DNA from: Verrucomicrobiales bacterium
GTDB taxonomy: Bacteria > Verrucomicrobiota > Verrucomicrobiia > Verrucomicrobiales > DEV007
Reading direction: 5' to 3'
NCBI GenBank assembly: GCA_017991025.1
Contig: JAGNMT010000001.1
Location: forward strand, 1 to 50,188
DNA: 50,188 bases
The translations under genes and the position numbers were made by a program. Below are positions 1,543 through 20,872 of the stretch, one piece after another. Numbering within the stretch: position 1 is the first letter of the stretch; the number at the start of each line of letters is the position of its first letter. The notes beneath the pieces are model-generated. The model saw only the letters and a program-made list of their open reading frames with translations, did no database searches and was not told the origin of the DNA.

Positions 1543-1572
1543 CCCAAAGACCGGTTCTGGATTCGTGGTAGA

Positions 1573-2292: not shown

Positions 2293-2358
2293 AGCTCGGG
2301 GAAGGTGAGAGACCGATGTCCTAGAACATCCTCGCTGCTTTTGTCTCGTGATAAGTTC

Positions 2359-3267
2359 TCAGGAAATCAGCTTGAGCTTCTTGGCAATGGGACGGATCTC
2401 GTGAAACTCGATTGGACTGCCAGCCCCTAAAGCACTTTGAAACGCCGCGTCCTGTCCATCCGCGAGGACCAGTGCGTGGACTTTGCGCTTTCCTGAGACG
2501 TGCTTTCTTATCCAGCCGAGATAAGAACAGATCTGGCCATAGGTATCCCTCTTCGCTTTCACCGTCTTTAATTCCAGAAGGACAAAGTCTTGTGTTTTCC
2601 GGTCGACGCAGAGGAGATCCATCCGGCCCCCGGCTTCGGGACAGGGAAGTTGACGCCCTTTTACACCATCGGGTGAGGTCCAGATCTTCAAGTCCCGCCC
2701 TAGAGCGCGCCCCACGGTTTTCAAGTTTTTCGCAAACGCGCTTTCGATCACAGATTCTAGAGGCAACTCGGTGGTAGGTCGGGATTTCTTGAGAATGGTG
2801 GAGACTGACGGAGGGAGTCGTCCATCCATAAGGCGCCACAGTGCCATAGAGTCCTGCGAGCTGACCCGGAAGAAGGAGCGCTGCATTCTACCCCGCAGCG
2901 CCGAAAAATTTTCCAGATCCGGGCAATCCCTCATTTCTTGAATCGAAATCGGGGGTGTGATCCGGGCAAGCACCTCAAACTCCGCCATGTAATTCCACTT
3001 TCCCCGAGTTCCTGTCTTAGGCCGCCACTTCTCATTAATCATCGCCGGTCCCACTGTGCGCAGCAGGTAGGCGATGTCCTTCTTCGGCGTAGTGCGGTAA
3101 AGGATCACGAGCTGACCGGGTTCCGTGTCCGGATGACAGGTGCCAACGCAGCGGGATTTCCGTCCGGGAAGGAGAAGGCGAGTCTCTTTTCCGTCTGCGT
3201 CGAGGTAGAAGTCCGGCTTCCAGATCCAGATCCATTCGAGGGGCGCTTGGGGCTTCTTCGTTGGCAT
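2359..3267 (-). CDS. EVE/PUA-like domain fused to a NucS-like PD-(D/E)xK nuclease (putative modification-dependent restriction enzyme)
   Basis: N-terminal EVE-like pattern (PGQLVILYRT...PISIQEMR...MQRSFFRVS); C-terminal GRMDLL...LLELK...GQICSYLGW. Start set at MPTKK (3267) because the longer ORF overlaps mcrB. Confidence 0.75.
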   Translation of the reverse strand: MPTKKPQAPLEWIWIWKPDFYLDADGKETRLLLPGRKSRCVGTCHPDTEPGQLVILYRTTPKKDIAYLLRTVGPAMINEKWRPKTGTRGKWNYMAEFEVLARITPPISIQEMRDCPDLENFSALRGRMQRSFFRVSSQDSMALWRLMDGRLPPSVSTILKKSRPTTELPLESVIESAFAKNLKTVGRALGRDLKIWTSPDGVKGRQLPCPEAGGRMDLLCVDRKTQDFVLLELKTVKAKRDTYGQICSYLGWIRKHVSGKRKVHALVLADGQDAAFQSALGAGSPIEFHEIRPIAKKLKLIS

Positions 3268-3462
3268 ATGACTTTCAGAGCCCAAAGAAGCAAGATGAGC
3301 GTTGCGTGTCAATACTCTTCGGGTAATGCATTGATAGCTTCGGACGGATTCAATCTCCAAAAGCAAGCGCTCAGATCCAATGCCGGCCACATACCTTTGA
3401 CCTGCTAACGACAGAAATCGGAGGGTGACTTTCGCTGGGGCATACCGTATCACGGAGGCGTC

Positions 3463-6108: not shown

Positions 6109-7172
6109 TGGCTACCCTTATTCCCATCGCGAACCTTTATTACCTCCTCTCCTACGCCTGGGATCACCGGCTGAGTGAGGCGGAGATGGTGTCGGTCGAT
6201 GCCGACTCCTGCCCGGATCTGAACAATCTCTTCGCCAGGGTTCTCGCCGCCGCCACCCATCGGCTTCTTCGGGGAGGGCTTGATCGCAGTTACCTTTCAG
6301 TGGAGGAGGAGACACCCCGGATCCGAGGGCGCATCGATTTTTCCGCCAGCGAGAAGAATCAGACCCGCACCCGTGGCAAGCTTGTCTGCACCTACGACGA
6401 ACTCAGTCCGGATGTCCTTCACAATCGCATCGTCAAGGCGACGCTCCGACTTCTCCTGCGCGACACTGTCGTGAAGCTGGAAACTCGTAGGGCTCTCCGA
6501 AAAGCGCTTGATGGCTTTGCCGAGGTGGGGGATTTGCGGGTGACCGCGCATCACTTCCATCGGGTCCAGTTGCACCGCAACAATCGATCTTACCGTTTCC
6601 TGCTCCACCTTTGCGAACTCATCCACCGGTCACTGCTTCCCGAAAAGTCTGCCGCGGCAGCGAGGCGCTTCCGGGATTTCACCCGGGATGAGAAACTCAT
6701 GGCCAAGGTCTTCGAGGATTTCGTCCAGAACTTTGCCCGCCGGCATCTCAAGGGCGCGGTCGTTTCCGCGATGCACATTGACTGGCTCGCTTCGCACCTG
6801 GGTGAGGGGACTCGTGCCACGCTGCCCCGCATGATCACCGACGTCACCGTTTCCTGGCCTGATCGAAAGCTCATCCTCGACTGCAAATACTATCAGGAGG
6901 CTCTCGTCTCCCACTACGACGCCCTTCGCTTCCGTTCCGGCAACCTCTATCAGCTCAACGCTTACCTGACCAATAAGGCGGCGGAGCCCGGTTGGGAGGA
7001 GGTCGAGGGGATGCTCCTTTATCCGAGCAACGGGTATCATTTAGACCACCGGTTTACTCTTCACGGTCGTCACCGTGTCTCGATCCGCACAATCGACCTT
7101 CAACAGCCGTGGACCGAGGTCGAGGCGAATCTGTTGGAGCTGTTTTATCCTGAATCGTCATTCGCCCTCTAA
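6108..7172 (+). CDS. mcrC: McrC-family nuclease subunit
   Basis: IPIANLYYLLSYAW start, IRGRID, FEDFV, TDVTV...ILDCKYY, LYQLNAY, GMLLYP; TGATG overlap with mcrB. Confidence 0.92.
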   Translation: MATLIPIANLYYLLSYAWDHRLSEAEMVSVDADSCPDLNNLFARVLAAATHRLLRGGLDRSYLSVEEETPRIRGRIDFSASEKNQTRTRGKLVCTYDELSPDVLHNRIVKATLRLLLRDTVVKLETRRALRKALDGFAEVGDLRVTAHHFHRVQLHRNNRSYRFLLHLCELIHRSLLPEKSAAAARRFRDFTRDEKLMAKVFEDFVQNFARRHLKGAVVSAMHIDWLASHLGEGTRATLPRMITDVTVSWPDRKLILDCKYYQEALVSHYDALRFRSGNLYQLNAYLTNKAAEPGWEEVEGMLLYPSNGYHLDHRFTLHGRHRVSIRTIDLQQPWTEVEANLLELFYPESSFAL

Positions 7173-7364
7173 CGGAGCGGCCGGTTGCGATTGAGAGGTC
7201 GTGGCGATCTGGCCCAGGAGCATCGGTTCGACGGCAGGAACCAGGTCGTCTGAAGGGAACCGCCGTGGCGAGGTGATCCCGCCAGAGGACGTTGAATCGG
7301 CTGTTGCCCTTTTGGGGGCTACTGAGCTCGCTCGGCCGGAATGGTTTCATGCGCATTGGAGGCA

Positions 7365-7390
7365 AGTTGGCTTTTCCAACTACAGTTGGA
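7365..7390. promoter_or_regulatory. Interlocking inverted repeats (AGTTGG/CCAACT half-sites), candidate operator upstream of the HTH-hsd operon
   Basis: AGTTGG-CTTTT-CCAACT (7365-7381) overlaps the palindrome TCCAACT-AC-AGTTGGA (7375-7390). Confidence 0.35.
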
Positions 7391-7510
7391 GTGGGGTTGC
7401 CGGTGACTCGCTGGCCTCCCCCTGTAGCAGTCCCACTCGGGGCAGTTTTTGAGCTGGTGAGTGACATTCTCCTTGCCTGAACCCCTTCCATCTGGTTCCT
7501 ACAAGGCCGG

Positions 7511-7717
7511 ATGACTCGATCAGCGATATCAGGAACCGAGCTCACGGCTTGGCGGACAAGGATTGGCAAACCACGAAGGTGGCTCGCCGAGCGTCTCGGC
7601 GTTTCTCCCAAGACGGTCGAGTCATGGGATTACGGCACGCGGAACCCGGGCGGACCCGCGCTTCGGCTGTTCCGTCAGTTGATGGCCAGACACCTTCGGA
7701 AAGAGGCACACCAGTAA
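7511..7717 (+). CDS. Small XRE/Cro-like HTH regulator leading the Type I RM operon
   Basis: LAERLGVSPKTVESWDYGTRNP is a classic XRE HTH; stop 1 nt before hsdM. Confidence 0.8.
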   Translation: MTRSAISGTELTAWRTRIGKPRRWLAERLGVSPKTVESWDYGTRNPGGPALRLFRQLMARHLRKEAHQ

Positions 7718-7718
7718 A

Positions 7719-9212
7719 ATGGAATCCCTCACCCTTTCCCAACTCGAGTCCCATCTTTGGGAGGCCGCCAACATCCTCCGCGGGCCCGTTGATGCGGCCG
7801 ACTTCAAGACCTACGTCTTCCCTCTCCTTTTCTTCAAGCGACTCTCCGATGTCAATGACGAGGAGCACGCAGCGGCTCTGATCGAATTCGACGGCGATGA
7901 GGAGTCCGCGTTATTTTCTGAGAATTACAGCTTCCAGATTCCCGAGGGCTGCCATTGGCGGGACGTGAGGAAGGTCGCCACGAATGTCGGTCAGACGCTA
8001 CAGACCGCCTTGCGTGGAATCGAGCAGGCGAATCCCCACACCCTCTACGGCATCTTTGGAGACGCCCAGTGGACAAACAAGGACCGGCTCTCCGACGCGC
8101 TCCTGCGGGATCTCATCGAGCACTTCTCCCGGCTTTCGCTGGGCAACACCGACGCCAAGGCTGATGTGCTGGGGCAATCTTACGAATACCTCATCAAGAA
8201 ATTCGCCGACGCAACCAACAAGAAGGCTGGTGAGTTCTACACCCCGCGCTCGGTCGTGCGGTTGATGGTGGAGATCCTTGATCCACGGGCGGGCGAGTCC
8301 ATCTACGATCCCGCCTGCGGCACCGGCGGCATGTTGCTCGAGGCCATTCATCACGTGCAAGAGACCCGGGGCGATGTCCGCACGCTCTGGGGCAGGCTCT
8401 ACGGCCAGGAGAAAAACCTCACCACCTCCGCCATTGCCCGCATGAACCTCTTCCTGCATGGCGCGGCGGACTTCCAGATCGTGCGTGGCGACACCCTGCG
8501 CAGCCCCGCTTTCTTCCTCGGTGACAGCCTCGCGACCTTCGACTGTGTTATCGCCAATCCGCCCTTCTCGCTGGAGAAATGGGGCGACGAGGTCTGGTCC
8601 GCTGATCCCTACGGCCGCAACTTCGCCGGCATGCCGCCCGCCAAGACCGGCGACTTCGCCTGGGTGCAGCACATGATCAAATCCATGGCTCCGAAGACCG
8701 GGCGCATGGCAGTCGTCCTCCCGCACGGCGCCCTCTTCCGCATGGGCAAGGAGGGCGAGATCCGCAAGAAGCTTCTCGGCATGGACCTGCTCGAGGCCGT
8801 CATCGGGCTTGGCCCCAACCTCTTTTACGGCGCCGGCCTCGCCGCCTGCATCCTCATCTTCCGTCAGACGAAGGCCAAGGACCGTAGGGGTAAGGTGCTC
8901 ATCATCGATGCCTCGAAGGAGTTCAAAGCCGGTCGCGCCCAAAACGAACTGCTGCCCGAGCACGTCGAGCGCATCCACGGCTGGGTCCGAGATTATGTGG
9001 ATGTCGCGGGCGTTGCCCGCCTCGTCACCCTCGAAGAGATCGCCGCCAACGATCACAACCTCAACATTCCCCGGTATGTCGAGCCTGTAGTCACGAGCGA
9101 GGCGCTCTCCGTGGAAGAAGCGATGAAGCGCTTACAAGAGAGCGCTGACGCGGCGTTTGCGGCTGAGGAACGGCTGGCTTGTATCCTTAAACGGGAGGGC
9201 CTGCTAAGCTAA
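7719..9212 (+). CDS. hsdM: Type I RM methyltransferase M1 (NPPF, predicted m6A)
   Basis: HsdM N-terminus LWEAANILRG, GEFYTP, motif I YDPACGTGG, motif IV IANPPF, NLNIPRY. Confidence 0.96.
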   Translation: MESLTLSQLESHLWEAANILRGPVDAADFKTYVFPLLFFKRLSDVNDEEHAAALIEFDGDEESALFSENYSFQIPEGCHWRDVRKVATNVGQTLQTALRGIEQANPHTLYGIFGDAQWTNKDRLSDALLRDLIEHFSRLSLGNTDAKADVLGQSYEYLIKKFADATNKKAGEFYTPRSVVRLMVEILDPRAGESIYDPACGTGGMLLEAIHHVQETRGDVRTLWGRLYGQEKNLTTSAIARMNLFLHGAADFQIVRGDTLRSPAFFLGDSLATFDCVIANPPFSLEKWGDEVWSADPYGRNFAGMPPAKTGDFAWVQHMIKSMAPKTGRMAVVLPHGALFRMGKEGEIRKKLLGMDLLEAVIGLGPNLFYGAGLAACILIFRQTKAKDRRGKVLIIDASKEFKAGRAQNELLPEHVERIHGWVRDYVDVAGVARLVTLEEIAANDHNLNIPRYVEPVVTSEALSVEEAMKRLQESADAAFAAEERLACILKREGLLS

Positions 9213-9225
9213 GCATCTGACACTG

Positions 9226-10446
9226 ATGGAAACTTTGTTCACCAAGTATGACCTTAGTGGGACCTTGCGAAACCAGCCAAAGGGCATCAGAGACGAAATT
9301 GAAAAGCTGGATGAAAACTACCTACTAAATGTATCCGAGGACGATCTTGGAGCAGCGTTGGCACCCAAATTCTTATGGGATCCGCCCGTTCTTGGCGAAC
9401 CACAGATCGCGAGTCATAAAGAGGTTTTTCAGGAAGTTACTGAAATGGATGATCGCTTCTTGGCTCGTGGTGAGTCGTATCAAGTTCGCCTTACTCGAAT
9501 CATCGTCCATGTCCCATATGTCGGAGACACCTCGTTTTTCCGAATGCTGCCCCCTCAAAGCCACTGGACTCCGCCGAGAGCAAGCATTCAATCTAATTAC
9601 CTTGAAATCGTATATGACGTCGATCCGAAGAAGGGGATCCACATTCGCGAATCAATCGAAAAATTTGTGTCCGATGTCCGATATCACCTCGACCAGATAA
9701 CAAAGGTTTCGCATGAACACAATGCGACGCTACCCCAGCATATACGAACGGAGATCCAAGCGCGCAAAGCTAGAATTCTTGATCGGCGGGACTTGGTAGC
9801 AAGCATTGGCATCCCGCTGCGAAATCGGGATGACTCACCGAAAACCTATGCGGTGCCAAGCATACGAAAGAAGCCCGAAGTCAAACTTCCTCAGGCTTCT
9901 CACACCCCTTTTGTTCCCGAACCGGTCTTGGATGAAAAGGAGTATGAGAATATTTTGACGATCATGCGGAGCATGGTTCGCGTGATGGAAGCCAGTCCCC
10001 ACGCGTTCTCGACCATGAAAGAAGAGGATTTGAGACAGCATTTTCTCGTCCAGCTAAACGGTCAGTACCAAGGAGGAGCAACTGGCGAAACCTTCAACTA
10101 CGAAGGGAAGACCGACATCCTTATCCGCGAGAAAGAGAGGAACGTCTTCGTCGGGGAATGTAAATTCTGGAAAGGGCCGGAATCACTTAAAAGCACCATT
10201 GACCAATGCCTTGGATATCTCCACTGGCGTGATACCAAGGCGGCGATCGTAATGTTTAACAGGAACAAAGATTTCACCAATGTCCTTGCTCAAATTGAGC
10301 CCACCGCCAAAGTGCATCCAGCGTTCAAAAGGTTCGTGCGCCAAGCAGGAGAAACCGAGTGGAGGTTCATTTTCTCGAACAAGGATGACTCCAACCGTGA
10401 GGTCCACCTCGCCATTATGGCGTTTGATATTCCAAAAGCCCCATGA
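9226..10446 (+). CDS. Hypothetical protein with C-terminal PD-(D/E)xK-like nuclease domain (RM-embedded cargo)
   Basis: 406-aa ORF, lower GC than flanks, ATGA-coupled to hsdM2; motif EEDLR...GKTDILI...GECKFW...QCLGY. Confidence 0.7.
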   Translation: METLFTKYDLSGTLRNQPKGIRDEIEKLDENYLLNVSEDDLGAALAPKFLWDPPVLGEPQIASHKEVFQEVTEMDDRFLARGESYQVRLTRIIVHVPYVGDTSFFRMLPPQSHWTPPRASIQSNYLEIVYDVDPKKGIHIRESIEKFVSDVRYHLDQITKVSHEHNATLPQHIRTEIQARKARILDRRDLVASIGIPLRNRDDSPKTYAVPSIRKKPEVKLPQASHTPFVPEPVLDEKEYENILTIMRSMVRVMEASPHAFSTMKEEDLRQHFLVQLNGQYQGGATGETFNYEGKTDILIREKERNVFVGECKFWKGPESLKSTIDQCLGYLHWRDTKAAIVMFNRNKDFTNVLAQIEPTAKVHPAFKRFVRQAGETEWRFIFSNKDDSNREVHLAIMAFDIPKAP

Positions 10447-11930
10447 CCCGCATCACCCAACAAAACCTCGAATCCTACCTCTGGGGAGCCGCCGTGCTCC
10501 TTCGAGGCACGATCGATGCGGGGGACTACAAGCAGTTCATCTTCCCGCTCCTCTTCTACAAGCGGCTCTGCGACGTCTATGATGAGGAAACCCAGACCGC
10601 CCTTCGCGAGTCCGAAGGCGACATGCTCTTTGCCCTCTTCCCGGAGAACCACCGCTTCCAGATCCCGGCCGAAGCCCATTGGCGCGAGATCCGGAAGGTC
10701 AACCGCGATGTGGGCCGAGCCTTCCAGCAGGCCATGCGGGCCATTGAGACCGCGAACCCCGACAAGCTCTTTGGCATCTTTGGCGATGCGCAGTGGACAA
10801 ACAAGGACCGCCTGTCCGATGCCATGCTGCGCGACCTCATCGAGCACTTCTCCACGCTCGAACTCACCGTCGCCAACCTGCCGGAGGACGAGCTCGGCCA
10901 GGGCTACGAGTATCTCATCAAGAAGTTCGCCGACGACTCCGGCCACACTGCAGCCGAGTTTTACACGAACCGCACCGTCGTCCACCTCATGACCGAGATG
11001 CTCGACGTGCAGCCCGGTGAGTCCGTCTATGACCCCACCTGCGGCTCCGGCGGCATGCTGCTCTCCTGCATCGCCCACCTGCGGAATCAGAAGAAGGAAT
11101 GGCGGAACGTGAAGCTCTACGGTCAGGAGCGGAACCTCATGACCTCGTCCATCGCCCGGATGAACTGCTTCCTCCACGGCATCGAGGATTTCCGCATCGA
11201 GCGGGGCGACACCTTGGCCGAGCCGAAGCTCGTCGAAGGCGACCGGCTCCAGCGCTTCGATGTCGTGCTGGCCAATCCGCCCTACTCCATCAAGCAGTGG
11301 AACCGCGAAGCCTTCGCCGCCGACCCCTGGGGGCGCAATGTCTTCGGCGTCCCGCCGCAGGGCCGCGCCGACTACGCCTTCCAGCAGCACATCCTGCAAA
11401 GCCTCAAGCCCAAGACCGGCCGCTGCGCCGTCCTCTGGCCACACGGCGTTCTTTTCCGGAAAGAAGAGGCGGAGATGCGCCGCAAGCTCATCGAGGCCGA
11501 CCTCATCGAGTGCGTCCTCGGCCTCGGTCCGAACCTCTTCTACAACTCGCCCATGGAAGCCTGCGTCGTCGTCTGCCGCACGCAGAAACCCAAAGCCCGG
11601 CGCGGAAAAATTCTCTTCATCAACGCGGTGAACGAAGTCACCCGCGAACGTGCCCAGAGCTTCCTCACCGACGAGCACCTCCAGCGCGTCGTCCGCGCCT
11701 ATCAGGATTTCAAGGACGAGCCCGGCTTCACCCGCGTCGTGCCCATAGCGGAGATCCGGGCGAAGGAGGGCAATCTGAGCATCCCGCTGTATGTCGGCGG
11801 TGAAACGCAGGCGCAGACCGATGCCGCCGCCGAGACCGCTACCACCGCCCTGCCCGATGCGCTCGCGAAGTGGCTGGAAAGCTCGGATGCCCTCCGGGAC
11901 TCGCTCCAAACCCTCCTTTCTGGGAAATGA
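10443..11930 (+). CDS. hsdM: Type I RM methyltransferase M2 (NPPY, predicted m4C)
   Basis: Paralogue of M1 (shared GIFGDAQWTNKDRLSDA); motif I YDPTCGSGG, motif IV LANPPY. Confidence 0.95.
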   Translation: MTRITQQNLESYLWGAAVLLRGTIDAGDYKQFIFPLLFYKRLCDVYDEETQTALRESEGDMLFALFPENHRFQIPAEAHWREIRKVNRDVGRAFQQAMRAIETANPDKLFGIFGDAQWTNKDRLSDAMLRDLIEHFSTLELTVANLPEDELGQGYEYLIKKFADDSGHTAAEFYTNRTVVHLMTEMLDVQPGESVYDPTCGSGGMLLSCIAHLRNQKKEWRNVKLYGQERNLMTSSIARMNCFLHGIEDFRIERGDTLAEPKLVEGDRLQRFDVVLANPPYSIKQWNREAFAADPWGRNVFGVPPQGRADYAFQQHILQSLKPKTGRCAVLWPHGVLFRKEEAEMRRKLIEADLIECVLGLGPNLFYNSPMEACVVVCRTQKPKARRGKILFINAVNEVTRERAQSFLTDEHLQRVVRAYQDFKDEPGFTRVVPIAEIRAKEGNLSIPLYVGGETQAQTDAAAETATTALPDALAKWLESSDALRDSLQTLLSGK

Positions 11931-12013
11931 AGGTGTGACTTTCCAATCAAAGTGCGACTTCGACCTTCAAAAACATGAACAAGCCATGTGAATTGTTTTG
12001 ACCCATTCGGGCT

Positions 12014-12349
12014 ATGCAGGTATTCTTTCGCTCCAAGAAGCTCCAGAAGACGTGTTCCTCCGCAAGGGAGATTCAGAAAGTCTTCGGAGTGGCTCGGGCC
12101 AAGAAGCTCCAGCAACGGTTGCTGGAACTCAGTGCCGCAGACCATCTTGGACAAATCTCCCGACTCCCTCCCGCCCGATGCCATGAAATGACCGGTGACC
12201 GCCAAGGCCAGCTTAGTGTCGACCTCGACCAGCCCTACCGGTTGTTTTTTATCCCCGCCGACGATCCCGTTCCCCGCAGGGCGGACGGTGGCCTCGACTG
12301 GGACGCAGTAACTGCGATCGAGATCATCGAGATCGACGATCCCCATTGA
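12014..12349 (+). CDS. higB: HigB/RelE-like toxin
   Basis: Typical pattern LQK.C...AKKLQQRL...RCHEMTGDRQGQLSVDLDQPYRLFFIP; upstream of higA. Confidence 0.85.
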   Translation: MQVFFRSKKLQKTCSSAREIQKVFGVARAKKLQQRLLELSAADHLGQISRLPPARCHEMTGDRQGQLSVDLDQPYRLFFIPADDPVPRRADGGLDWDAVTAIEIIEIDDPH

Positions 12350-12363
12350 ATTTCCCGACCCCC

Positions 12364-13455
12364 ATGAAAGCCAAACGCCAGAATCCGTTCGAGCCGGACT
12401 ACGCCATCCCCCCGGGAGCCACCCTGGAGGAGACGATGGAGAGCCTTGGCATGACCCAGCGCGACCTTGCCAATCGCACTGGTCTGACCGTGCAAACCCT
12501 GAATCGCATCTTCAAGGGCGAGCAGCCCATCACCTACGAGACGGCCAACCGCCTCGAACTCGTCACCGGCACGCCGGCTGCCTTCTGGAACAATTTGGAG
12601 GCCCAATACCGCGAGCAGCTCGCCAAGCTAGACGAGAAACGGGAGCTGGAGGAACACCTCGACTGGCTCAAGGCGATTCCCACCCGGGAGTTGGTCCAGC
12701 GTGGTGCCATTCCTCCCTGCGAGGAAAAAGTCGTGCTCCTGCGGGAAGTGCTGCGCTTCTACAGCGTCAGCTCGACCGCTGCGTGGCGCGCCGTGTGGGA
12801 GGAGCCAGCCGCTGCGGCGCGTCGTTCGACCTTCTTCGCCTCCAGTCCAGGCCCCACGTCGGCATGGCTGCGGCTCGGCCAGATGCGGGCCCGCGAGATC
12901 GTCTGTCGATCCTATGACAAGAAGACCTTCGCGGCCAACCTCCAGACCATCCGTGGATTCACCACGCTGACACCCGAGCAGTTCGTTCCGAAGATGGAGC
13001 GTCTCTGCGCCGAGGCCGGGGTGGCCTGCGTTCTTGTGCCTGAGATCAAGGGAGCGCCCTGGAGCGGAGCCGCCGAGTGGCTCACGCCGACCAAGGCCAT
13101 GCTGCTCTTGAATCTGCGGGGGAAGGCCGAAGACAAATTCTGGTTCTCCTTCTTCCACGAGGCCAGCCACATCCTCAATGACAGCAAGAAGGAAACCTAT
13201 CTCGATGATGGCAAGCGCTACGAGGACGATCCCGCCGAAAAATGTGCCGACGAGTTTGCGGCGGAGATGCTGGTCCCGAGGAAGTTTGATCAGGTGATCC
13301 AGCGGGCAAAATCCGCCGAGGAGATCAAAGCCCTTGCGAAGCAGATTGGCGTCAGTGCCGGGATCGTGGCCGGGCGGTTTCAGCATCTCACTAAGAGGTG
13401 GTCGCATTTTAAGGGACTTATCCGCCGTTTGGAGTGGCAACAGGACGCCGTATGA
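12364..13455 (+). CDS. higA: HigA-family antitoxin, XRE HTH fused to ImmA/IrrE-like metallopeptidase
   Basis: IPPGATLEE...MTQRDLA HTH, TANRLE...FWNNLE; HExxH (FHEASH) and E..AD.FAAEML. Confidence 0.88.
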   Translation: MKAKRQNPFEPDYAIPPGATLEETMESLGMTQRDLANRTGLTVQTLNRIFKGEQPITYETANRLELVTGTPAAFWNNLEAQYREQLAKLDEKRELEEHLDWLKAIPTRELVQRGAIPPCEEKVVLLREVLRFYSVSSTAAWRAVWEEPAAAARRSTFFASSPGPTSAWLRLGQMRAREIVCRSYDKKTFAANLQTIRGFTTLTPEQFVPKMERLCAEAGVACVLVPEIKGAPWSGAAEWLTPTKAMLLLNLRGKAEDKFWFSFFHEASHILNDSKKETYLDDGKRYEDDPAEKCADEFAAEMLVPRKFDQVIQRAKSAEEIKALAKQIGVSAGIVAGRFQHLTKRWSHFKGLIRRLEWQQDAV

Positions 13456-13766
13456 GCGGACAAGGACTTTCGACTCGCATGGCTTTCACCGATTCAACCC
13501 TCTCACATCTCCGGCCCAACCCTCTTTGGTCGGAGTTGCCGGAATTCGACCGCAGCGGCTGGAAGCGCTTCCAGTTTGGCAAGATTGCCGAATGCATCGG
13601 GGAGCGGGTTGAGAAGCGGGATGAACCAGCAAAAGCGGTTATGCAGGCCCAGACCGACGCAGCGACTGAGTCGGTCATCACGGCGCTGCCGAATGCCCTG
13701 GCACATTGGGTTCAAAGTGCTGGATCCGTTCTGATACAGCTCAACACTCTCATCTCAGCCAAATGA
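13452..13766 (+). pseudogene. Chimeric remnant ORF: hsdS 5' fragment fused to hsdM2 3' fragment
   Basis: NPLWSELPEFDRSGWKRFQFGKIAECIGERVE matches HsdS NPAWASLPLFDRTGWKRMAFGDFAQSIGERAE; QAQTDAATESVITALPNALAHWVQS...TLISAK* matches HsdM2 QAQTDAAAETATTALPDALAKWLES...TLLSGK*. Confidence 0.88.
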
Positions 13767-14737
13767 ATCTTTCGAAGGAGCAAAACGACGCCGTGGGTTT
13801 CTATGACCAGCACTATTCTATCGTCTTCGATAGCGAACTGACCGTGGGCCGTCACATCAAGTTAGCGGACCAACAAGGCATAGAAGACCGCATTTGTCGG
13901 TTTTGCGGACTTGGAAAGCCAAACGTCACATTCCGTAAAGTTGCCCATGCGGTCCCCGAGTTCCTTGGAAACAAATCGCTCGTCTCCCAAAATGAGTGCG
14001 ATGCCTGTAATGAAAAACTGGCCGACGAATACGAGGATCACCTTTCCAAGTGGTTTGGTCCGATGCGCACTGTATCTCAAATAAGGGGTAAGGGCGGTGT
14101 GCCGACTTACAAGAACAAGGACATTCGTATCGAGATGGGCGAGAAGGGTCTCGAGATTGGAATCATTGGAGAGGAGCTGGAGTCATCTCTAAACTTTGAT
14201 GGCCCGTTCACCTTCAAGATTCCGGTTCCCACTCCTGCCCAAGCGCATGTGCCTTTGAGGGCTGCGAAAGCTCTGTTGAAAGTGGCTTGCTCGATTTGCC
14301 CGCCAGAGCTTTTAAGCGAATGCCAACCGACTATCGAATGGCTTATGTCCCGCGTGAATGCGAGCCTTTCGATGTTTCCCGTGCTGTTTGCGTTTACACC
14401 AGGGCCAAACCCTTATTGCGACGGTAAAGTGTTTTTGCTCCGACGGAAAAGCGATGCGAAGCTGCCTTTCCTTTGGTGTATCTTGGCCACAGCGAATTAT
14501 CGGTTTCAATTCTTCGTCCCGTTCTGCCCGTCAGATACATGGATCACTCCGGGTGAACCCGTCGAACTAACGCCTCCGCATTTTCCTGACGTTTTTGGCG
14601 ACAAGTGGCCACACGGAAAAACTGGATTCGGGGTCTTCGACTGGTCGGGAACCGAACCGGTGGTTCGAGAGCAGTCAGTGAGCTTCAATGTCGATAGCGT
14701 GGAGAAGGTGGACATCAAACCCGACTCTGAAAACTGA
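13763..14737 (+). CDS. HNH endonuclease-like protein (RM-embedded cargo)
   Basis: CRFCG...AHAVPEFLGN...ECDACN zinc/HNH motif; ATG at 13763 overlaps the upstream stop (ATGA); TGATG overlap with hsdS. Confidence 0.78.
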   Translation: MNLSKEQNDAVGFYDQHYSIVFDSELTVGRHIKLADQQGIEDRICRFCGLGKPNVTFRKVAHAVPEFLGNKSLVSQNECDACNEKLADEYEDHLSKWFGPMRTVSQIRGKGGVPTYKNKDIRIEMGEKGLEIGIIGEELESSLNFDGPFTFKIPVPTPAQAHVPLRAAKALLKVACSICPPELLSECQPTIEWLMSRVNASLSMFPVLFAFTPGPNPYCDGKVFLLRRKSDAKLPFLWCILATANYRFQFFVPFCPSDTWITPGEPVELTPPHFPDVFGDKWPHGKTGFGVFDWSGTEPVVREQSVSFNVDSVEKVDIKPDSEN

Positions 14738-15963
14738 TGACATCCGTTGCTCCATTAATTGGGTCCCTCAAGTCAAACCCCGCTTGGGCCTCCCTCCCGC
14801 TCTTCGACCGCACGGGCTGGAAGCGCATGGCCTTCGGTGACTTCGCTCAAAGCATCGGGGAACGGGCGGAGCCGAAGGATGCGCAGGAGGAGATTTATGT
14901 GGGGCTGGAGCATCTGGACCCGCAGTGCCTGCACATCCGGCGCTGGGGGAAGGGCAGCGATGTCATCGGTGGCAAGCTGCGCTTTCGGAAGGGCGACATC
15001 ATCTTTGGCAAACGCCGCGCCTATCAGCGGAAGCTGGCCGTGGCGGAGTTCGGCGGCATCTGCTCCGCACATGCCATGGTCATTCGGGCCAGGCCGGATA
15101 AGGTGCTGCCGGAGTTCCTGCCCTTCCTCATGATGAGCGACCGCTTCATGAACCGCGCCGTCGAGATTTCCGTGGGCTCGCTCTCACCCACCATAAACTG
15201 GACCACGCTCAAGCTGGAGACCTTCGACCTCCCGCCGCTCGACCAGCAGCGGCGCATCGCGGAAATCCTCTGGGCGGTGGATGCAAGCCTGGGTGCGAAT
15301 GATGGGCTTGAATTGTCACTCTTGGAATATCGGCAGGGACTCCTTGATTCAATCGCCCACGAGTATTCAGAGTCCCACGCACTTGCTCCTTTGGACTCTG
15401 CGATCGAGCAAGGCAGACCGATCTGTTATGGTATCCTAATGCCAGGTCTTGGAATTGAGAATGGAATCCCCGTCGTCAAAGTCCGCGACTTTCCTGACGG
15501 TTTTATTCGCGAAGGAGATTTGCTGCAAACTACCCCGGAAATTGAAGCTCCGTATAAGCGGTCGCGATTAAAGAGCGGAGACCTCATCATTTCAATTCGC
15601 GGCACAATCGGCAGAATGGCCGAAGTCCCACCGTCGCTTGATGGTGCAAACATTACACAGGATACGGCGAGACTCTCGATAGCTCCCGAACACAACCGTG
15701 GTTACCTGCGAGCTGTTTTAGAGTCGCGATTTGTTGAGAGACAAATTCAGTCCCGCATCACCGGTCTTGCCGTAAAAGGTATCAACATCGGTGAGTTGAG
15801 ACAAATTCAGATACCACTTCCATCGCGTCGTAAACAGGACGGAATCGCGGAAAAGCTCTCCACGATTTCCACAGCGCAGAGAGCAGCAGCGGCCAATTCG
15901 GCGCAGGTGCGCAGTGTTATAGCCGCCAGCATTGAAAACCTACTTGGAGGACATTCACGATGA
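14737..15963 (+). CDS. hsdS: Type I RM specificity subunit
   Basis: Two TRDs (KGDIIFGK...; SGDLIISIRGTIG) each followed by conserved helices (LPPLDQQRRIAEIL; IPLPSRRKQDGIAEKL). Confidence 0.93.
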   Translation: MTSVAPLIGSLKSNPAWASLPLFDRTGWKRMAFGDFAQSIGERAEPKDAQEEIYVGLEHLDPQCLHIRRWGKGSDVIGGKLRFRKGDIIFGKRRAYQRKLAVAEFGGICSAHAMVIRARPDKVLPEFLPFLMMSDRFMNRAVEISVGSLSPTINWTTLKLETFDLPPLDQQRRIAEILWAVDASLGANDGLELSLLEYRQGLLDSIAHEYSESHALAPLDSAIEQGRPICYGILMPGLGIENGIPVVKVRDFPDGFIREGDLLQTTPEIEAPYKRSRLKSGDLIISIRGTIGRMAEVPPSLDGANITQDTARLSIAPEHNRGYLRAVLESRFVERQIQSRITGLAVKGINIGELRQIQIPLPSRRKQDGIAEKLSTISTAQRAAAANSAQVRSVIAASIENLLGGHSR

Positions 15964-16001
15964 ATTTTACCAAATCCAACACCGTGGAGCTGACGCAATG
16001 A
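15960..16001 (+). pseudogene. 13-codon remnant of the hsdR 5' end
   Basis: Translates MNFTKSNTVELTQ*, versus the true HsdR start MGFNESNTVEQ; overlaps the hsdS stop and the next ATG (ATGA at both ends). Confidence 0.7.
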
Positions 16002-16909
16002 ATAAAAAGCTTTCACCAGCTTTTGTGGAATTGACCCAGGACGCCCTTCTCAAGGCGATCTGGTTCAAGGGGAGTTTGCGGATGTTCTTGATTCAGCATC
16101 AGATCTCAGAGTCAATACTGGCTCAATGGCAGGCCGACCAATCTAAGCGTGATTTTATTAACTGGCTCTGGCCAAGGCTCGTCAAAGACGAGAAGGGTCA
16201 GAACGCGATCTTGGCGATGGCGAGATCGCTCGCCGAAATGAGGCACTTCCCAGACCTCGAGCGAAAGGAAGATACGAAGGAACGGATACCCGAAGCAGTC
16301 GAAGCAATAAATCGACTCAGAGTTGTTGTCTCTGCGGTGAACGAGACAATAAGTGAAACAAAGGCAGCAGAGAAGCGAAGGCAAACTGCACGGGAACAGA
16401 CATCACAGCTACTAGCTGCGATGCAGTCGCTGGAAAAGCTTCAATCCGATCTGAACGCGCTTACTCCAAAAATCGGAACACAGCCAGGTGGATATGAATT
16501 TGAGAAATGGCTCTATGATCTCGCCATATTCTTCGAGCTTGATGCGAGGCCCGGCTACAAGGCCGCTGGTCGTCAAATTGACGGCGCAATTACAATCGAA
16601 GGAACGACATTCCTCCTCGAAGCAAAGCTGGTCAATGCTCCAATCGGATCACCCGACATCGACATCTTCATGGCTAAAATCGAATCGAAGGCAGACAACA
16701 CGATGGGTCTTTTTGTTTCCCTCTCCGGCTTTAATGAGGGCGCTAAGCTGGCTGCGTCAAAGCAACGCACGCCGATGTTGTTACTGGATTCGGGGCACAT
16801 CTTCACCCTGATAATGCGGGGGATCATGACTCTTCCTCAGGTAGTATCACGAATCAAACGTCACGCGCACCAAACCGGCTCCTCCTACCTCAGCGCCGCT
16901 GACTTTTGA
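15998..16909 (+). CDS. Mrr-like restriction endonuclease (RM-embedded cargo)
   Basis: C-terminal Mrr_cat-like pattern YEFEKWL...QIDG...LLEAK...GLFVSLSGF; helical N-terminus. Confidence 0.8.
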   Translation: MNKKLSPAFVELTQDALLKAIWFKGSLRMFLIQHQISESILAQWQADQSKRDFINWLWPRLVKDEKGQNAILAMARSLAEMRHFPDLERKEDTKERIPEAVEAINRLRVVVSAVNETISETKAAEKRRQTAREQTSQLLAAMQSLEKLQSDLNALTPKIGTQPGGYEFEKWLYDLAIFFELDARPGYKAAGRQIDGAITIEGTTFLLEAKLVNAPIGSPDIDIFMAKIESKADNTMGLFVSLSGFNEGAKLAASKQRTPMLLLDSGHIFTLIMRGIMTLPQVVSRIKRHAHQTGSSYLSAADF

Positions 16910-16911
16910 CC

Positions 16912-19902
16912 ATGGGCTTCAACGAATCCAATACCGTCGAGCAGATGATCCTCGACGCCGCAACCAGCCTCGGTAGCGGCTCAGGCTCATCCCTCGTTAG
17001 CGAAGGCCCACCTGCGGGCTGGAGTGGTTCCTTGGGCGAGGAATTCAAGCCTTCGCGCTGGACCTACGAGCCTGCCACAGTGCTACCCCGTCAACCCGGC
17101 GAAGTCATGGTGGAGCCCTGGGTGCGGGAGTCGCTCATCGCCCTGAATCCCGAGATCGCTGAACAACCCGATCGTGCAGACGAGGTGATCTACGCTCTCC
17201 GGGCCATCCTGCTCTCCGTGCAGGGCGACGGGCTGGTGCGGGCGAACGAGAACTTCATGGCCTGGCTGCGCGGGGAGAAGACGATGCCCTTTGGCCCGAA
17301 CGGCGAGCATGTGGCGGTGCGGCTGGTGGATTTCACCCAGCCCGCGAAGAACCGGCTGACGGTGACGAACCAGTGGACCTACCAGACGGGCACCGTGGTG
17401 AAGCGCTTCGACGTGGTCTTTCTGGTGAACGGACTGCCGCTGGTGATCGGCGAGGCGAAGACGCCAACGCGCAGCGCGGTGACGTGGTTCGACGGGGCGT
17501 ATCAGGTGAACGAGATCTACGAGAAGGAGATTCCGGCCATGTTTGTGCCGAACGTTTTCTCCTTTGCCACGGAAGGCCGCGTGCTGCGCTACGGCAGCAT
17601 CCGCATGCCCATCGACCTCTGGGGGCCGTGGCGCGATGAGGAGCATCAGGAGGAGGGCAACCTGGGCCATGTCCGCAAGACGGTGGAAAGTCTCCTGCGG
17701 CCCGGCGTGGTGCTGGACATCCTGCAGAACTTCACCCTCTTCGCCACGGACAAGAAGCACCGGCGCATCAAGGTGATCTGCCGTTACCAGCAATACGAGA
17801 CGACGAACAAGATGATCGCCCGCGTCGTGGCCGGGTATCCGAAGAAGGGCCTCATCTGGCATTTCCAGGGCAGCGGCAAGAGCCTGCTGATGGTCTTCGC
17901 CGCGCAGAAGTTGCGGATGCACCCGAGGCTGGGCAATCCCACGGTGCTGATCGTGGTGGACCGCATCGACCTCGACACCCAGATCAGCGCCACCTTCAAC
18001 GCGGCGGACGTGCCGAACATGGTGGGCGTGGGCGACCGGCAGGAACTGCAACGGCTGATCAATCAGGACGTGCGCAAGGTGCTGATCACGACCATCCACA
18101 AGTTCGGCGAGGCCACGGGCGAATGGAACGCCCGCAAGAACATCATCGTGATGGTGGACGAGGCGCACCGCACGCAGGAGGGCGACCTGGGCCGCAAGAT
18201 GCGCGAGGCGTTGCCGAATGCCTTTCTCTTTGGCCTGACCGGCACGCCTATCAACCGGGCCGACCGCAACACTTTCTGGGCCTTCGGCGCGGACGAGGAC
18301 AGCGCGGGCTACCTCAGCCGCTATTCGTTCCAGGATTCCATCCGCGACAAGGCGACGCTGCCGCTGCACTTCGAAGCGCCGACGGTGAAGCTCAAGATCG
18401 ACAAGGCGGCCATCGACGAGGCCTTCAAGCAGATCACCGACGACATGAGCGAGCAGGATCGCGACGATCTCGCGAAACGCGCCGCGAAGATGGCCGTGCT
18501 GGTGAAGAACCCGGAACGCGTGCGGGCCGTGGTGGAGCACATTGTGCAGCATTACCAGACCAAGGTGGAGCCGAACGGCTTCAAAGCGCAGGTGGTGTGC
18601 TTCGACCGCGAATGCTGCGTGCTCTACAAGCAGGTGATGGACGAGATCATCGGCCCCGAGGCCAGCGCCGTCGTCATGAGCTCGGGGCAGAAGGATCCGC
18701 CGGGATGGAGCGTCCACCTCCGCGACAAGGACGCCGAGGAGAAACTGCTCGACCGCTTCCGCGATCCAGTCGATCCGCTGAAGTTTGTCATCGTGACGAG
18801 CAAGCTGCTCACCGGCTTCGACGCGCCGATCCTCCAGGCCATGTACCTCGACAAGCCGATGAGGGATCACAATCTCCTCCAGGCCATCTGCCGGGTGAAC
18901 CGCACCTACGGCCAGATGAAGACCCACGGTCTCATCGTGGATTACATCGGCATCTTCGACGACGTGGCCCAGGCCCTGGACTTCGACGAGAAGGCGGTGC
19001 AGCAGGTCGTGAGCAACATCGACGAGCTGCGCAAGGCCCTGCCAGTGCAGGTGCAGAAGTGCCTGGCCTTCTTTCCCGGTGTGGACCGCAGCGTGGGAGG
19101 CTACGAAGGCCTCATGGAAGCCCAGCAATGCTTGCCGGACAACGCCACCCGCGACAAGTTCGCTGGCGAATACAGCGTGCTCGGCACGATCTGGGAGGCC
19201 CTTTCCCCCGACCCCTGTCTCGGAGCCTATGCGCCGGACTACAAATGGCTGACTCAGGTCTATGAATCGGTGAAGCCGGTGAGCGGCAACGGAAAACTGC
19301 TCTGGCATCGGCTCGGCGCCAAGACCATCGAACTCATCAACGAGAACGTCCACGTCGAAGCGGTGCGCGACGACATTGAGGCCCTCGTCCTCGACGCTGA
19401 CATTCTCGACGGCATCCTCGGCGACGCCAACCCTTCGAAGAAGGCCAAGGAAGTCGAGATCAAACTGATCGCCCGGCTCCGCAAGCACGCCGGCAACCCC
19501 AAATTCACCGAACTCGGCGAACGACTCGAAAAGGTGCGAGAGCGCCACGAACAGGGGCTGCTCAACAGCCTGGAATTCCTCAAGGCAATCCTCGAGATCG
19601 CCAAGGAAGTCGTCGAGGCCGAGAACCGGGTCGATCCCGAGGAGGAACAGGACCGCGCCATCGCCGCGCTCACGGAGCTGTTCAACGAAGTGAAAAACAA
19701 AAGCACGCACGTCATCGTCGAGCGTCTCGTCGCCGACATCGATGCGATCGTGCGGCAGATTCGCTTCGACGGTTGGCAGGCCACCTCCGCCGGGGAGCGC
19801 GAGGTGCAGAAGGCGCTACGCTCAACTTTGAGGAAGTTCCAGCTTCACACTGATCAGGAACTCTTTGAGAAGGCCTACGGATACATTCGGCAGTATTATT
19901 GA
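16912..19902 (+). CDS. hsdR: Type I RM restriction subunit
   Basis: Nuclease FDVVFLVNGLPLVIGEAK, Walker A WHFQGSGKS, VDEAHR, LTGTP, LLTGFDAP, LLQAICRVNR. Confidence 0.96.
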   Translation: MGFNESNTVEQMILDAATSLGSGSGSSLVSEGPPAGWSGSLGEEFKPSRWTYEPATVLPRQPGEVMVEPWVRESLIALNPEIAEQPDRADEVIYALRAILLSVQGDGLVRANENFMAWLRGEKTMPFGPNGEHVAVRLVDFTQPAKNRLTVTNQWTYQTGTVVKRFDVVFLVNGLPLVIGEAKTPTRSAVTWFDGAYQVNEIYEKEIPAMFVPNVFSFATEGRVLRYGSIRMPIDLWGPWRDEEHQEEGNLGHVRKTVESLLRPGVVLDILQNFTLFATDKKHRRIKVICRYQQYETTNKMIARVVAGYPKKGLIWHFQGSGKSLLMVFAAQKLRMHPRLGNPTVLIVVDRIDLDTQISATFNAADVPNMVGVGDRQELQRLINQDVRKVLITTIHKFGEATGEWNARKNIIVMVDEAHRTQEGDLGRKMREALPNAFLFGLTGTPINRADRNTFWAFGADEDSAGYLSRYSFQDSIRDKATLPLHFEAPTVKLKIDKAAIDEAFKQITDDMSEQDRDDLAKRAAKMAVLVKNPERVRAVVEHIVQHYQTKVEPNGFKAQVVCFDRECCVLYKQVMDEIIGPEASAVVMSSGQKDPPGWSVHLRDKDAEEKLLDRFRDPVDPLKFVIVTSKLLTGFDAPILQAMYLDKPMRDHNLLQAICRVNRTYGQMKTHGLIVDYIGIFDDVAQALDFDEKAVQQVVSNIDELRKALPVQVQKCLAFFPGVDRSVGGYEGLMEAQQCLPDNATRDKFAGEYSVLGTIWEALSPDPCLGAYAPDYKWLTQVYESVKPVSGNGKLLWHRLGAKTIELINENVHVEAVRDDIEALVLDADILDGILGDANPSKKAKEVEIKLIARLRKHAGNPKFTELGERLEKVRERHEQGLLNSLEFLKAILEIAKEVVEAENRVDPEEEQDRAIAALTELFNEVKNKSTHVIVERLVADIDAIVRQIRFDGWQATSAGEREVQKALRSTLRKFQLHTDQELFEKAYGYIRQYY

Positions 19903-19939
19903 GCAGCAGCTCGTCAGAGAAAAACTCGAAAGAGATCCA

Positions 19940-20872
19940 ATGCCCTCACACTGCGACATTAACGAACGATGCATCAGTCAGCTTCGCAATGTAGGCCTCG
20001 AGGGATATTTCGCAGTAATTGGTTCAGGGCCTTCAAGTCGCTTTATAGCGAGCATTGAGAAACTAGAGGAAAAGCTGGGATCGCTCGTAGGGATTGAAAA
20101 AAAGCAGGAACAACATTTCTGGGACTACACCCAGGACGTTTTCGATGCGCTGCAAGGAAACACCAATCAATATTTTTCTGCAATTCGAGAAACCTACGGC
20201 GATTCCTTCCAATGGACGGCACGAATTTATGAACAGATCGCCTTTCTTCCAGTAAAGGGCTTTGCAACCCTAAATTATGATGATCAACTACCACATGCCT
20301 TTCGGCTACGCCATGAAGATCGCGAAGCTAGACGCTTTTACCTTTATCCGCATCCCGCTGTAAATTTTCCGCGGTCACTTAGCGACCTACTCAGCGATCA
20401 ACCACAGCTCATAGCACTTCACGGTTACGCTGACGAAAACAACCCCACTTGGGAGAGGGAGATAATCCTTAAGCGGTCGGATTACAACAGGTATTACTCT
20501 GGCCATGGCGCACCCCTCGCGTCATGGTGGCGCGAAATCCTCCTCAACATCCCCTGTCTTTTCATTGGAACAAAGCTTTACGAACCGGGAATCAAACTGG
20601 TTATTAACCAGTTCGACGACCGTGACCTTGAGCGGCTTCGATCACAAAAACACGTTCACCTTGTCGGAGTGAACAAATCCTCGGAGATCGATACTTCAAA
20701 AACCTTCGGTCTAATTGACAGAGTGTCTTACAAAAAGCTCGATAGAGATCACAAAGGGCTTTGCAAAATCCTTTCAGACCTGAACGGACTACCTCCTTAC
20801 TCAGTGCATCAATCTCTCCCGACACCGTCCTCAATTAATCCTGGCTTCGATCCGAATGCTTCTATCTTATGA
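19940..20872 (+). CDS. SIR2-like domain protein (putative NADase effector)
   Basis: VIGSGPS, TLNYDD, LHG, ILKRSDY, LFIG.KL.EP.I follow the SIR2_2 motif order; start uncertain (ORF open from 19865). Confidence 0.8.
   Translation: MPSHCDINERCISQLRNVGLEGYFAVIGSGPSSRFIASIEKLEEKLGSLVGIEKKQEQHFWDYTQDVFDALQGNTNQYFSAIRETYGDSFQWTARIYEQIAFLPVKGFATLNYDDQLPHAFRLRHEDREARRFYLYPHPAVNFPRSLSDLLSDQPQLIALHGYADENNPTWEREIILKRSDYNRYYSGHGAPLASWWREILLNIPCLFIGTKLYEPGIKLVINQFDDRDLERLRSQKHVHLVGVNKSSEIDTSKTFGLIDRVSYKKLDRDHKGLCKILSDLNGLPPYSVHQSLPTPSSINPGFDPNASIL

What the first reader, a model, noticed from the sequence alone, without database searches (positions are those of the whole stretch)
13452..13766. hsdS'-'hsdM2 chimeric scar recording two stacked alleles of the same cargo slot
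Seen: ~13507-13613 is a diverged copy of the hsdS 5' end, and 13643-13766 is a diverged, equal-length copy of the last 124 nt of hsdM2 (11807-11930; both end AAATGA). They are fused in frame with ATGA overlaps on both sides, giving M2-[higBA]-S'::'M2-[HNH]-S. Inference: two versions of the M2-S slot from related loci were concatenated, a route for accumulating cargo. The open frame may persist because it relays translational coupling, and the duplicated ends could allow recombinational loss of either cassette.
Basis: partly seen in the sequence, partly recalled or inferred. Interest (0 to 1): 0.8.

Follow-up and report, generated by a model that had tools for sequence, protein, structure and literature searches.

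The report
Gene-stacking scar relaying ribosomes
A short open reading frame made of leftover ends of two restriction-system genes marks where two defence-gene cassettes from related gene clusters were likely joined in tandem, and it is likely kept in frame so that ribosomes are handed on to the next gene.

Summary
The scar is real. 13452-13766 is an open 104-codon frame: an hsdS head (75/115 nt like the intact gene) fused to an hsdM2 tail (79/124). Contigs of five runs bridge it. It lies in the M2-S slot of an m4C/m6A-type two-methyltransferase Type I R-M operon. Both single-cassette parents exist in relatives: M2-higBA-S (L034, L187) and M2 followed directly by HNH (L115). The scar's tail is closest to L115's (91/124; best of 48), so it came with HNH rather than by local duplication. 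Four of 36 other loaded slots carry such remnants. The scar has lost invariant residues yet stays in frame. Across 27 head remnants, 10 of 10 that can reach an ATGA stop do so in the head frame; hsdR-derived bridges of 8-35 codons sit before Mrr, including at 15960-16001 here. This favours a translational-coupling relay (inferred, untested); a pre-stated replication gave only one new scar, uncoupled. Recombinational loss through the repeats is unsupported (exact matches 8 and 12 nt). No fixed crossover, so no dedicated capture machine. The scan noted similar hsdM/hsdS scars on other DNA before. New variant of known R-M cargo slots.

The parts
7719..9212 (+). hsdM1, NPPF motif (m6A-type subunit)
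   Evidence: Pfam N6_Mtase and HsdM_N; motif in translation
9226..10446 (+). cargo gene in the M1-M2 slot, PADLOC candidate PDC-S54
   Evidence: E 7.7e-147
10443..11930 (+). hsdM2, NPPY motif (m4C-type subunit); last 124 nt (11807-11930) are the intact counterpart of the scar tail
   Evidence: best PDB match 7vru_B E 8e-198
12014..12349 (+). cassette A gene 1, HigB-like (weak)
   Evidence: PF05015 E=0.02; HigB chains at E 0.3-0.7; 78% identical to the gene after M2 in L034
12346..13455 (+). cassette A gene 2, HigA-type HTH plus IrrE-like peptidase (ATG at 12364)
   Evidence: 70% identical to L034
13452..13766 (+). chimeric scar frame, 104 codons, ATGA overlap at both ends
   Evidence: no homolog but itself among proteins of 57-182 aa
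13479..13623 (+). hsdS 5' remnant (S'), may extend to about 13636
   Evidence: 86/145 nt to 14737-14881; spacing of native starts
13624..13642 (+). junction, 19 nt not assigned; possible 12-nt in-frame tandem repeat nearby (9/12 alike)
13643..13766 (+). hsdM2 3' remnant ('M2), imported with the HNH gene
   Evidence: 79/124 to own tail, 91/124 to L115 tail
13763..14737 (+). cassette B, HNH_5 protein, 324 aa, no SD-like pairing upstream
   Evidence: 84% identical to the gene after M2 in L115; SD check
14737..15963 (+). intact hsdS, start overlaps HNH stop (TGATG)
15960..16001 (+). second scar: 13-codon hsdR-head mini-ORF bridging the hsdS stop and the Mrr start by two ATGA overlaps
   Evidence: 26/39 nt like the hsdR start
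15998..16909 (+). cargo in the S-R slot, Mrr_cat nuclease
16906..19902 (+). hsdR (ATG at 16912)
   Evidence: TIGR00348 above cut-off

Best explanation
The stretch 13452-13766 is an in-frame fusion of an hsdS head and an hsdM2 tail that likely arose when an M2-higBA-S operon and a related M2-HNH-S operon were joined, and its frame is likely kept open so that ribosomes finishing higA reinitiate onward to HNH and hsdS. Shown: the chimera, both parental arrangements in relatives, the tail's closer likeness to the HNH-linked tail, loss of invariant residues, and frame-keeping in sister scars. Inferred: cassettes normally swap by homologous recombination in the conserved M2 and hsdS flanks; here one end recombined by homology and the other joined illegitimately (or two operons were co-integrated and the part from the first hsdS head to the second M2 tail was deleted), so both cassettes stayed. 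Inferred: HNH has no ribosome-binding site of its own and was coupled to the M2 stop in its parent, so of the possible joins the in-frame one was retained; the peptide itself is a by-product. Which operon was the recipient is not resolved. About 0.85 for the two-parent origin, about 0.65 for origin plus relay.
For: Parents: L034 M2(93%)-higB(78%)-higA(70%)-S with the same ATGA at higA-S; L187 a distant second case; L115 M2(91%)-HNH(84%) with the same ATGA; L150 M2-HNH(44%); HNH directly before hsdS in L061, L117, L143. Tail origin: scar vs L115 91/124, last 60 nt 49/60, like the HNH genes themselves (782/975), while the window's own tail vs L115 is 33/60; L115 ranks first of 48 native tails. 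Differences to the own tail fall 13/7/25 on codon positions 1/2/3, as for divergence inside working genes. Sequence relaxed: tail Arg (47/47 natives) is Leu, LP[LI]F-type motif (L or I in 36/36) is LPEF; profile score above only 2 of 47 tails and 1 of 36 heads. Frame kept: in 27 head remnants the head frame stops within 8 nt of the next ATG in 15, the other two frames in 8 of 54; where an ATGA stop is the first stop in some frame it is the head frame in 10 of 10 (8 of 8 without the window; about 7 unrelated downstream genes). In 7 of 8 Mrr loci the hsdS stop is bridged to the Mrr start by an ATGA-to-ATGA mini-ORF of 8, 13, 13, 13, 18, 26 or 35 codons. L044 has a drifted M2-tail frame of 81 codons, gap-free over 66 aligned codons, ending ATGA on a reverse-transcriptase gene (score 74 vs shuffle maximum 33). 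Stacked cassettes of L044, L059 and L108 have homologs (46-63%) that stand alone in the slot elsewhere. ATGA pairs were strictly coupled in 13 of 14 tested cases (PMC6728339, passages).
Against: No expression data: RNA-run contigs reach only to 13495 and cannot show level or strand. For this scar alone, chance is not negligible: one join in three is in frame, and simulated neutral drift leaves each half stop-free in 29-71% of runs. The 27 remnants were picked by hand, are related by descent, and 12 were scored uncoupled. The pre-stated replication on 42 further loci (many redundant or short) gave one new scar, L192, and it is not coupled. Two M2-tail remnants (L059, L108) are out of frame with what precedes them. 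The tree of tails does not resolve scar plus L115. L115's hsdS is itself truncated, so it is a proxy, not the donor. No native hsdS head is a close match to S' (best 100/157). Many genes here lack SD pairing, so its absence at HNH is weak evidence.
Confidence: 0.65

Rival explanations
1. Same two-parent origin, but the scar is neutral: both ATGA overlaps were inherited, and the in-frame join and lack of stops are chance.
For: Overlaps exist in L034 and L115; AAATGA also ends M2 genes where no gene is coupled, including the window's own; stop-free survival is 29-71% per half in simulation; L192, L059-tail and L108 scars are not coupled.
Against: 10 of 10 frame choice across about 7 downstream gene families and five different bridge lengths before Mrr; the uncoupled tails in L059 and L108 precede cassettes that also stand about 55-80 nt away from M2 in single-cassette loci.
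Confidence: 0.2
2. The 104-aa product is a working mini-protein: its M2 tail helix could bind the HsdS coiled coil as a decoy and tune assembly.
For: M-subunit C-terminal tails form a four-helix bundle with the S conserved regions and are needed for assembly in PacII (PMC9613975, passages); the scar keeps the Trp of the tail helix.
Against: Invariant Arg and near-invariant Leu of the helix are lost; no homolog of the chimera among proteins of similar length; sister scars differ freely in length and content.
Confidence: 0.07
3. One cassette was inserted in place with a long target duplication of the M2/hsdS junction and the spare copies then decayed.
For: Such insertions are known for R-M loci, often spanning start or stop sites (PMC2853133, passages).
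Against: Reported repeats are nearly identical, these are 64-65%; the scar tail is closer to another locus (91/124) than to its own operon (79/124), with a third-position bias.
Confidence: 0.05
4. A dedicated, site-specific cassette system (integron-like) adds units bounded by M2 tail and hsdS head.
For: The slot is loaded in 37 of 56 close loci with very diverse cargo; a tyrosine integrase lies at 238-1542.
Against: Remnant ends vary: hsdS heads end at profile positions 85-254, M2 tails start at different points, hsdR heads run about 35-160 nt; no conserved crossover or recombinase beside the slot.
Confidence: 0.03

Closest known systems
m4C/m6A Type I R-M systems with two methyltransferases (PMC5100572; PacII structure PMC9613975)
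   Same: M1 NPPF, then M2 NPPY, then S, then R; extra ORFs between subunit genes, including M2-S (2 of 10 systems there) and one M2-S fusion (passages).
   Different: The passages seen report interspersed ORFs only. Here the slot holds two stacked cassettes with a chimeric remnant, and in the close clade it is either fused (18) or loaded (37), never split and empty; split-adjacent forms appear in more distant relatives.
Insertion of R-M genes with long target duplication (PMC2853133)
   Same: Direct repeats of variable length that span start or stop sites and leave the target gene intact (passages).
   Different: There the R-M system is the insert and repeats are nearly identical; here the R-M operon is the host and the repeats come from two diverged donors.
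Translational coupling by termination-reinitiation at ATGA overlaps (PMC6728339); EcoKI hsdM-hsdS coupling (PMC3510504, search listing and start of abstract)
   Same: ATGA and TGATG overlaps chain the operon; dependence on upstream translation is the proposed effect.
   Different: Here the upstream partner is a non-functional gene remnant kept only as a frame.
Defence genes embedded in Type I operons, such as prrC in ecoprrI (PMC12707154, passage)
   Same: Defence or toxin-antitoxin cargo carried inside an hsd operon.
   Different: No functional link between this cargo and the R-M enzyme was tested; the finding concerns how cargo is stacked and expressed.
Homology-facilitated illegitimate recombination (recalled; a search gave no paper tying it to such slots in the 20 listed)
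   Same: One homologous anchor and one illegitimate join would give exactly M2-A-S'::'M2-B-S.
   Different: Not distinguishable here from co-integration followed by deletion.

Membership tests
m4C/m6A two-MTase Type I R-M | M1 with NPPF upstream of M2 with NPPY, then S, then R | tested here: met
   translations and order
m4C/m6A two-MTase Type I R-M | M1 and M2 about 45-55% identical; M2 closest to M2.PacII-type chain, with NSPME loop | tested here: met
   54.8% over 454 aa; 7vru_B E 8e-198, loop aligned; range from PMC5100572
m4C/m6A two-MTase Type I R-M | m4C on one strand, m6A on the other | not testable with these tools
   needs a methylome
Insertion with long target duplication | near-identical direct repeats copied from the resident target | tested here: not met
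   64-65% identity; tail closer to L115 than to the resident M2
Integron-like or site-specific cassette array | fixed crossover site shared by cassettes | tested here: not met
   remnant ends vary between loci
Integron-like or site-specific cassette array | dedicated recombinase next to the array | tested here: not met
   nearest integrase 238-1542 is about 12 kb away; its target was not tested
Termination-reinitiation coupled gene pairs | ATGA or TGATG stop-start overlap | tested here: met
   13452-13455, 13763-13766, 14735-14739
Termination-reinitiation coupled gene pairs | downstream translation depends on upstream translation | not testable with these tools
   only comparative support
HigBA toxin-antitoxin (cassette A) | HigA antitoxin above family cut-off | tested here: met
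   TIGR02607 52.2 vs 47.7 bits
HigBA toxin-antitoxin (cassette A) | HigB/RelE-type toxin upstream | tested here: inconclusive
   PF05015 15.8 bits vs cut-off 27; PDB HigB E 0.33-0.66

The most novel reading that the evidence does not exclude
Type I R-M operons of this family grow defence cargo by a general rule: each illegitimate join leaves a remnant of a subunit gene that selection trims in steps of three bases into a ribosome-relay mini-ORF, so promoterless, SD-less genes are expressed at once and the downstream hsdS and hsdR stay supplied. The operon's own gene ends act as expression adaptors for captured genes, with no recombinase.
Probability: 0.45. Interest if true: 0.62.

Novelty: new variant of a known kind. 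Interest (0 to 1): 0.42.

Why it matters
Genes inside hsd operons are well known, but how they pile up and get expressed is mostly not traced. This locus records one step, with both parental arrangements found, and sister loci suggest that remnants survive as frames rather than as proteins. If so, hsd slots can be mined for new defence genes (cargo seen: AbiEi/AbiEii, Xre-RES, HipA, AAA-RloB, RT plus PolA, Schlafen), many tiny 'hypothetical' ORFs in defence islands are coupling adaptors, and the idea can be tested with one stop codon. Searches listed no paper describing such remnant relays; the library is partial, so this is not proof of novelty.

Tried and rejected
Homolog search with the chimera: only itself (1 of 1 candidate). 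Promoter scan 7100-17000: 3 sites vs 2.7 expected, none in the scar or HNH; no information. Tree of 16 tails: 11 of 13 forks open, no verdict. First coupling control started the other frames at the scar's start and used a wide window; replaced by the junction-based control. In one search L082-13343 is scored uncoupled because the script took an upstream ATG; one search shows it coupled; counts were left as printed. Left out of the 27: L143 (frameshifted hsdS), L032 and L028 (deletions in hsdR), two L038 copies at an N gap, hits that are true gene starts at locus edges (L060, L063, L067, L085, L086, L115 second head), and M2-tail-only remnants (treated apart). Replication by genome sampling was low-yield: M2 matches in 6/401, 5/251, 4/251, 1/246 genomes; plasmids 3 records, not fetched. 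HNH in 6/401 and HigA in 12/401 genomes gave distant homologs; of those HigA loci only L162 lies in R-M remains. RNA runs X15-X17 hold small shares and scattered pieces; no evidence either way. One X8 joint 11581-15223 comes from a contig with 29 differences in 218 letters, so it was read as a relative's locus, not a loss (2 joints were not shown). My early idea that the slot is never split and empty fails for relatives at 73% M2 identity or less. No structure or complex prediction was run; no supplementary files were read.

Full report
Observation. The 124 nt 13643-13766 match the last 124 nt of hsdM2 at 79 positions without gaps, and the part before them matches the hsdS 5' end (75/115); both beat 1000 shuffles by a wide margin. 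The two halves form one open frame of 104 codons with ATGA overlaps on higA and on the HNH gene. Contigs from runs not flagged as a source (X12, X13, X14) bridge it with 0-3 differences, so it is not an assembly join.

Setting. The window is a defence island (integrase, McrBC, GmrSD, Zorya, ABC-3C). The operon is M1(NPPF)-cargo-M2(NPPY)-cargo-S-cargo-R, the layout of m4C/m6A Type I systems, for which ORFs between subunit genes and an M2-S fusion are described (PMC5100572, passages). The closest M2 relatives are mostly Verrucomicrobiota records. Of 80 loci plus the window, 76 had a scorable M2 and 56 also an hsdS: 18 have M2 fused to S, 37 have 968-6741 nt of cargo between them, 1 is frameshifted, none is split and adjacent. 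More distant relatives are often split and adjacent. Cargo is varied and largely toxin-antitoxin or defence-like (58 proteins scanned).

Origin. They do. L034 has M2-higB-higA-S with higA overlapping hsdS by ATGA; L187 is a distant second case. L115 has M2 overlapping an 84% identical HNH gene by ATGA, followed by an hsdS head; of 41 HNH loci, five lie in such operons (L115, L116, L117, L143, L150), all four at 65% identity or more to the window's HNH over its length or close to it being among R-M loci except none known otherwise, while the more distant homologs mostly showed no hsd genes in the DNA held. The scar tail matches L115's tail at 91/124 and 49 of the last 60, about the identity of the two HNH genes (782/975), whereas the window's own tail matches L115 at 33 of 60; likeness begins at 13643. 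L115 is the best of 48 native tails, though a tree does not resolve it. So the tail travelled with HNH. This fits one homologous and one illegitimate join, or co-integration and deletion; relatives show such deletions between subunit genes (L027, L028; remnants upstream of M1 in L030, L033, L036). The direction is not resolved.

Recurrence. Four of the 36 other loaded M2-S slots hold remnants: L044 (M2 tail), L059 (M2 tail and hsdS head), L062 (hsdS head), L108 (M2 tail); L115 adds a truncated hsdS before more cargo. Cassettes stacked in L044, L059 and L108 have homologs standing alone elsewhere. hsdR-head remnants are frequent in the S-R slot, and the window has one at 15960-16001. Ends vary, which argues against a site-specific system. 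Only the window's scar shows both halves clearly.

Why the frame is open. The scar has lost residues invariant in 47 tails and 36 heads and scores near the bottom of both sets, so the protein is not under the usual constraint. On its own the open frame is only suggestive (one in three joins; 29-71% survival per half), and both overlaps are inherited. The family is more telling. In 27 hand-picked head remnants the head frame stops within 8 nt of the next gene's ATG in 15, against 8 of 54 for the other frames; in all 10 cases where an ATGA stop is the first stop of some frame it is the head frame. These 10 lead into about 7 unrelated genes; one third to the seventh power is about 0.0005 (arithmetic; kin and hand-picking weaken it). 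Before Mrr, 7 of 8 loci bridge the hsdS stop to the Mrr start with mini-ORFs of five different lengths. L044's tail has drifted far yet keeps 81 open codons ending ATGA. The two out-of-frame tails (L059, L108) precede cassettes that stand apart from M2 in single-cassette loci too. Against: the pre-stated replication found one new scar, uncoupled, with a GGAG before the next gene, and no expression data exist. ATGA pairs are usually coupled in experiments (PMC6728339, passages).

Loss by recombination. Longest exact matches are 8 and 12 nt, short of what RecA-type exchange needs (recalled), and no clean loss appears in the listed joints. This part is not supported.

Comparison and verdict. The host is a member of a known family; the scar fails the tests for long target duplication (PMC2853133, passages) and for integron-like arrays. 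A decoy role through the M tail helix (PMC9613975, passages) is possible but unlikely. PMC12707154 and PMC10275272 were seen as passages, PMC3510504 as a listing with the start of its abstract. The scan's earlier notes describe similar hsdM-tail and hsdS-tail scars in other genomes; they are leads, not support. Verdict: a real, well-explained stacking scar with good comparative but no experimental evidence for a coupling relay; new variant of a known kind; interest 0.42.

Noticed in passing
window 15960-16001: 13-codon hsdR-head mini-ORF joining the hsdS stop to the Mrr start; an RNA-run contig (X15 record 6) carries the same bridge and Mrr start behind a different upstream sequence.
   Followed up: yes
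L029-L108 (loci): In the close clade M2-S is either one fused gene of about 880-1100 codons or split with cargo; split hsdS genes share an N-terminal extension ending in an NP.W motif that most fused linkers lack.
   Followed up: partly
window 9226-10446: PADLOC candidate PDC-S54 fills the M1-M2 slot; this slot also varies from 0 to about 3400 nt in relatives.
   Followed up: no
L044 9226-12481: Reverse transcriptase plus DNA polymerase A-like pair as cargo in the M2-S slot, behind a drifted M2-tail frame.
   Followed up: partly
L038 14731-15318; L026 14209-17983: Three successive hsdR-head remnants in one S-R region, suggesting repeated stacking; L038 has an N gap there.
   Followed up: partly
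L030 4966-6518; L036 3603-5954; L162 822-4044: Cargo left between an M2 tail and hsdS or hsdR fragments after the host operon decayed; in L030 and L036 just upstream of an intact operon.
   Followed up: partly
L027 8126-8548; L028 7968-8820: Deletion chimeras between subunit genes: M1 head to M2 tail in frame, M1 head to hsdR tail out of frame.
   Followed up: partly
L065 9995-13297: M2-S fusion of about 1100 codons with an extra unidentified domain in the linker.
   Followed up: no
window 19865-23835: SIR2-like gene and a 988-aa gene with a weak Dsr1 match directly after hsdR.
   Followed up: no
window 238-7717 and 23856-46881: Integrase, McrBC, small HTH gene before M1, GmrSD_N, Zorya type I-like genes, HIT-helicase, ADP-ribosylglycohydrolase, WYL and ABC-3C genes: a large defence island.
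   Followed up: no
L059 about 12340-12360; L108 about 5940-5980: Short inverted repeats just upstream of cassettes that follow out-of-frame M2-tail remnants, possibly operators (seen by eye).
   Followed up: no
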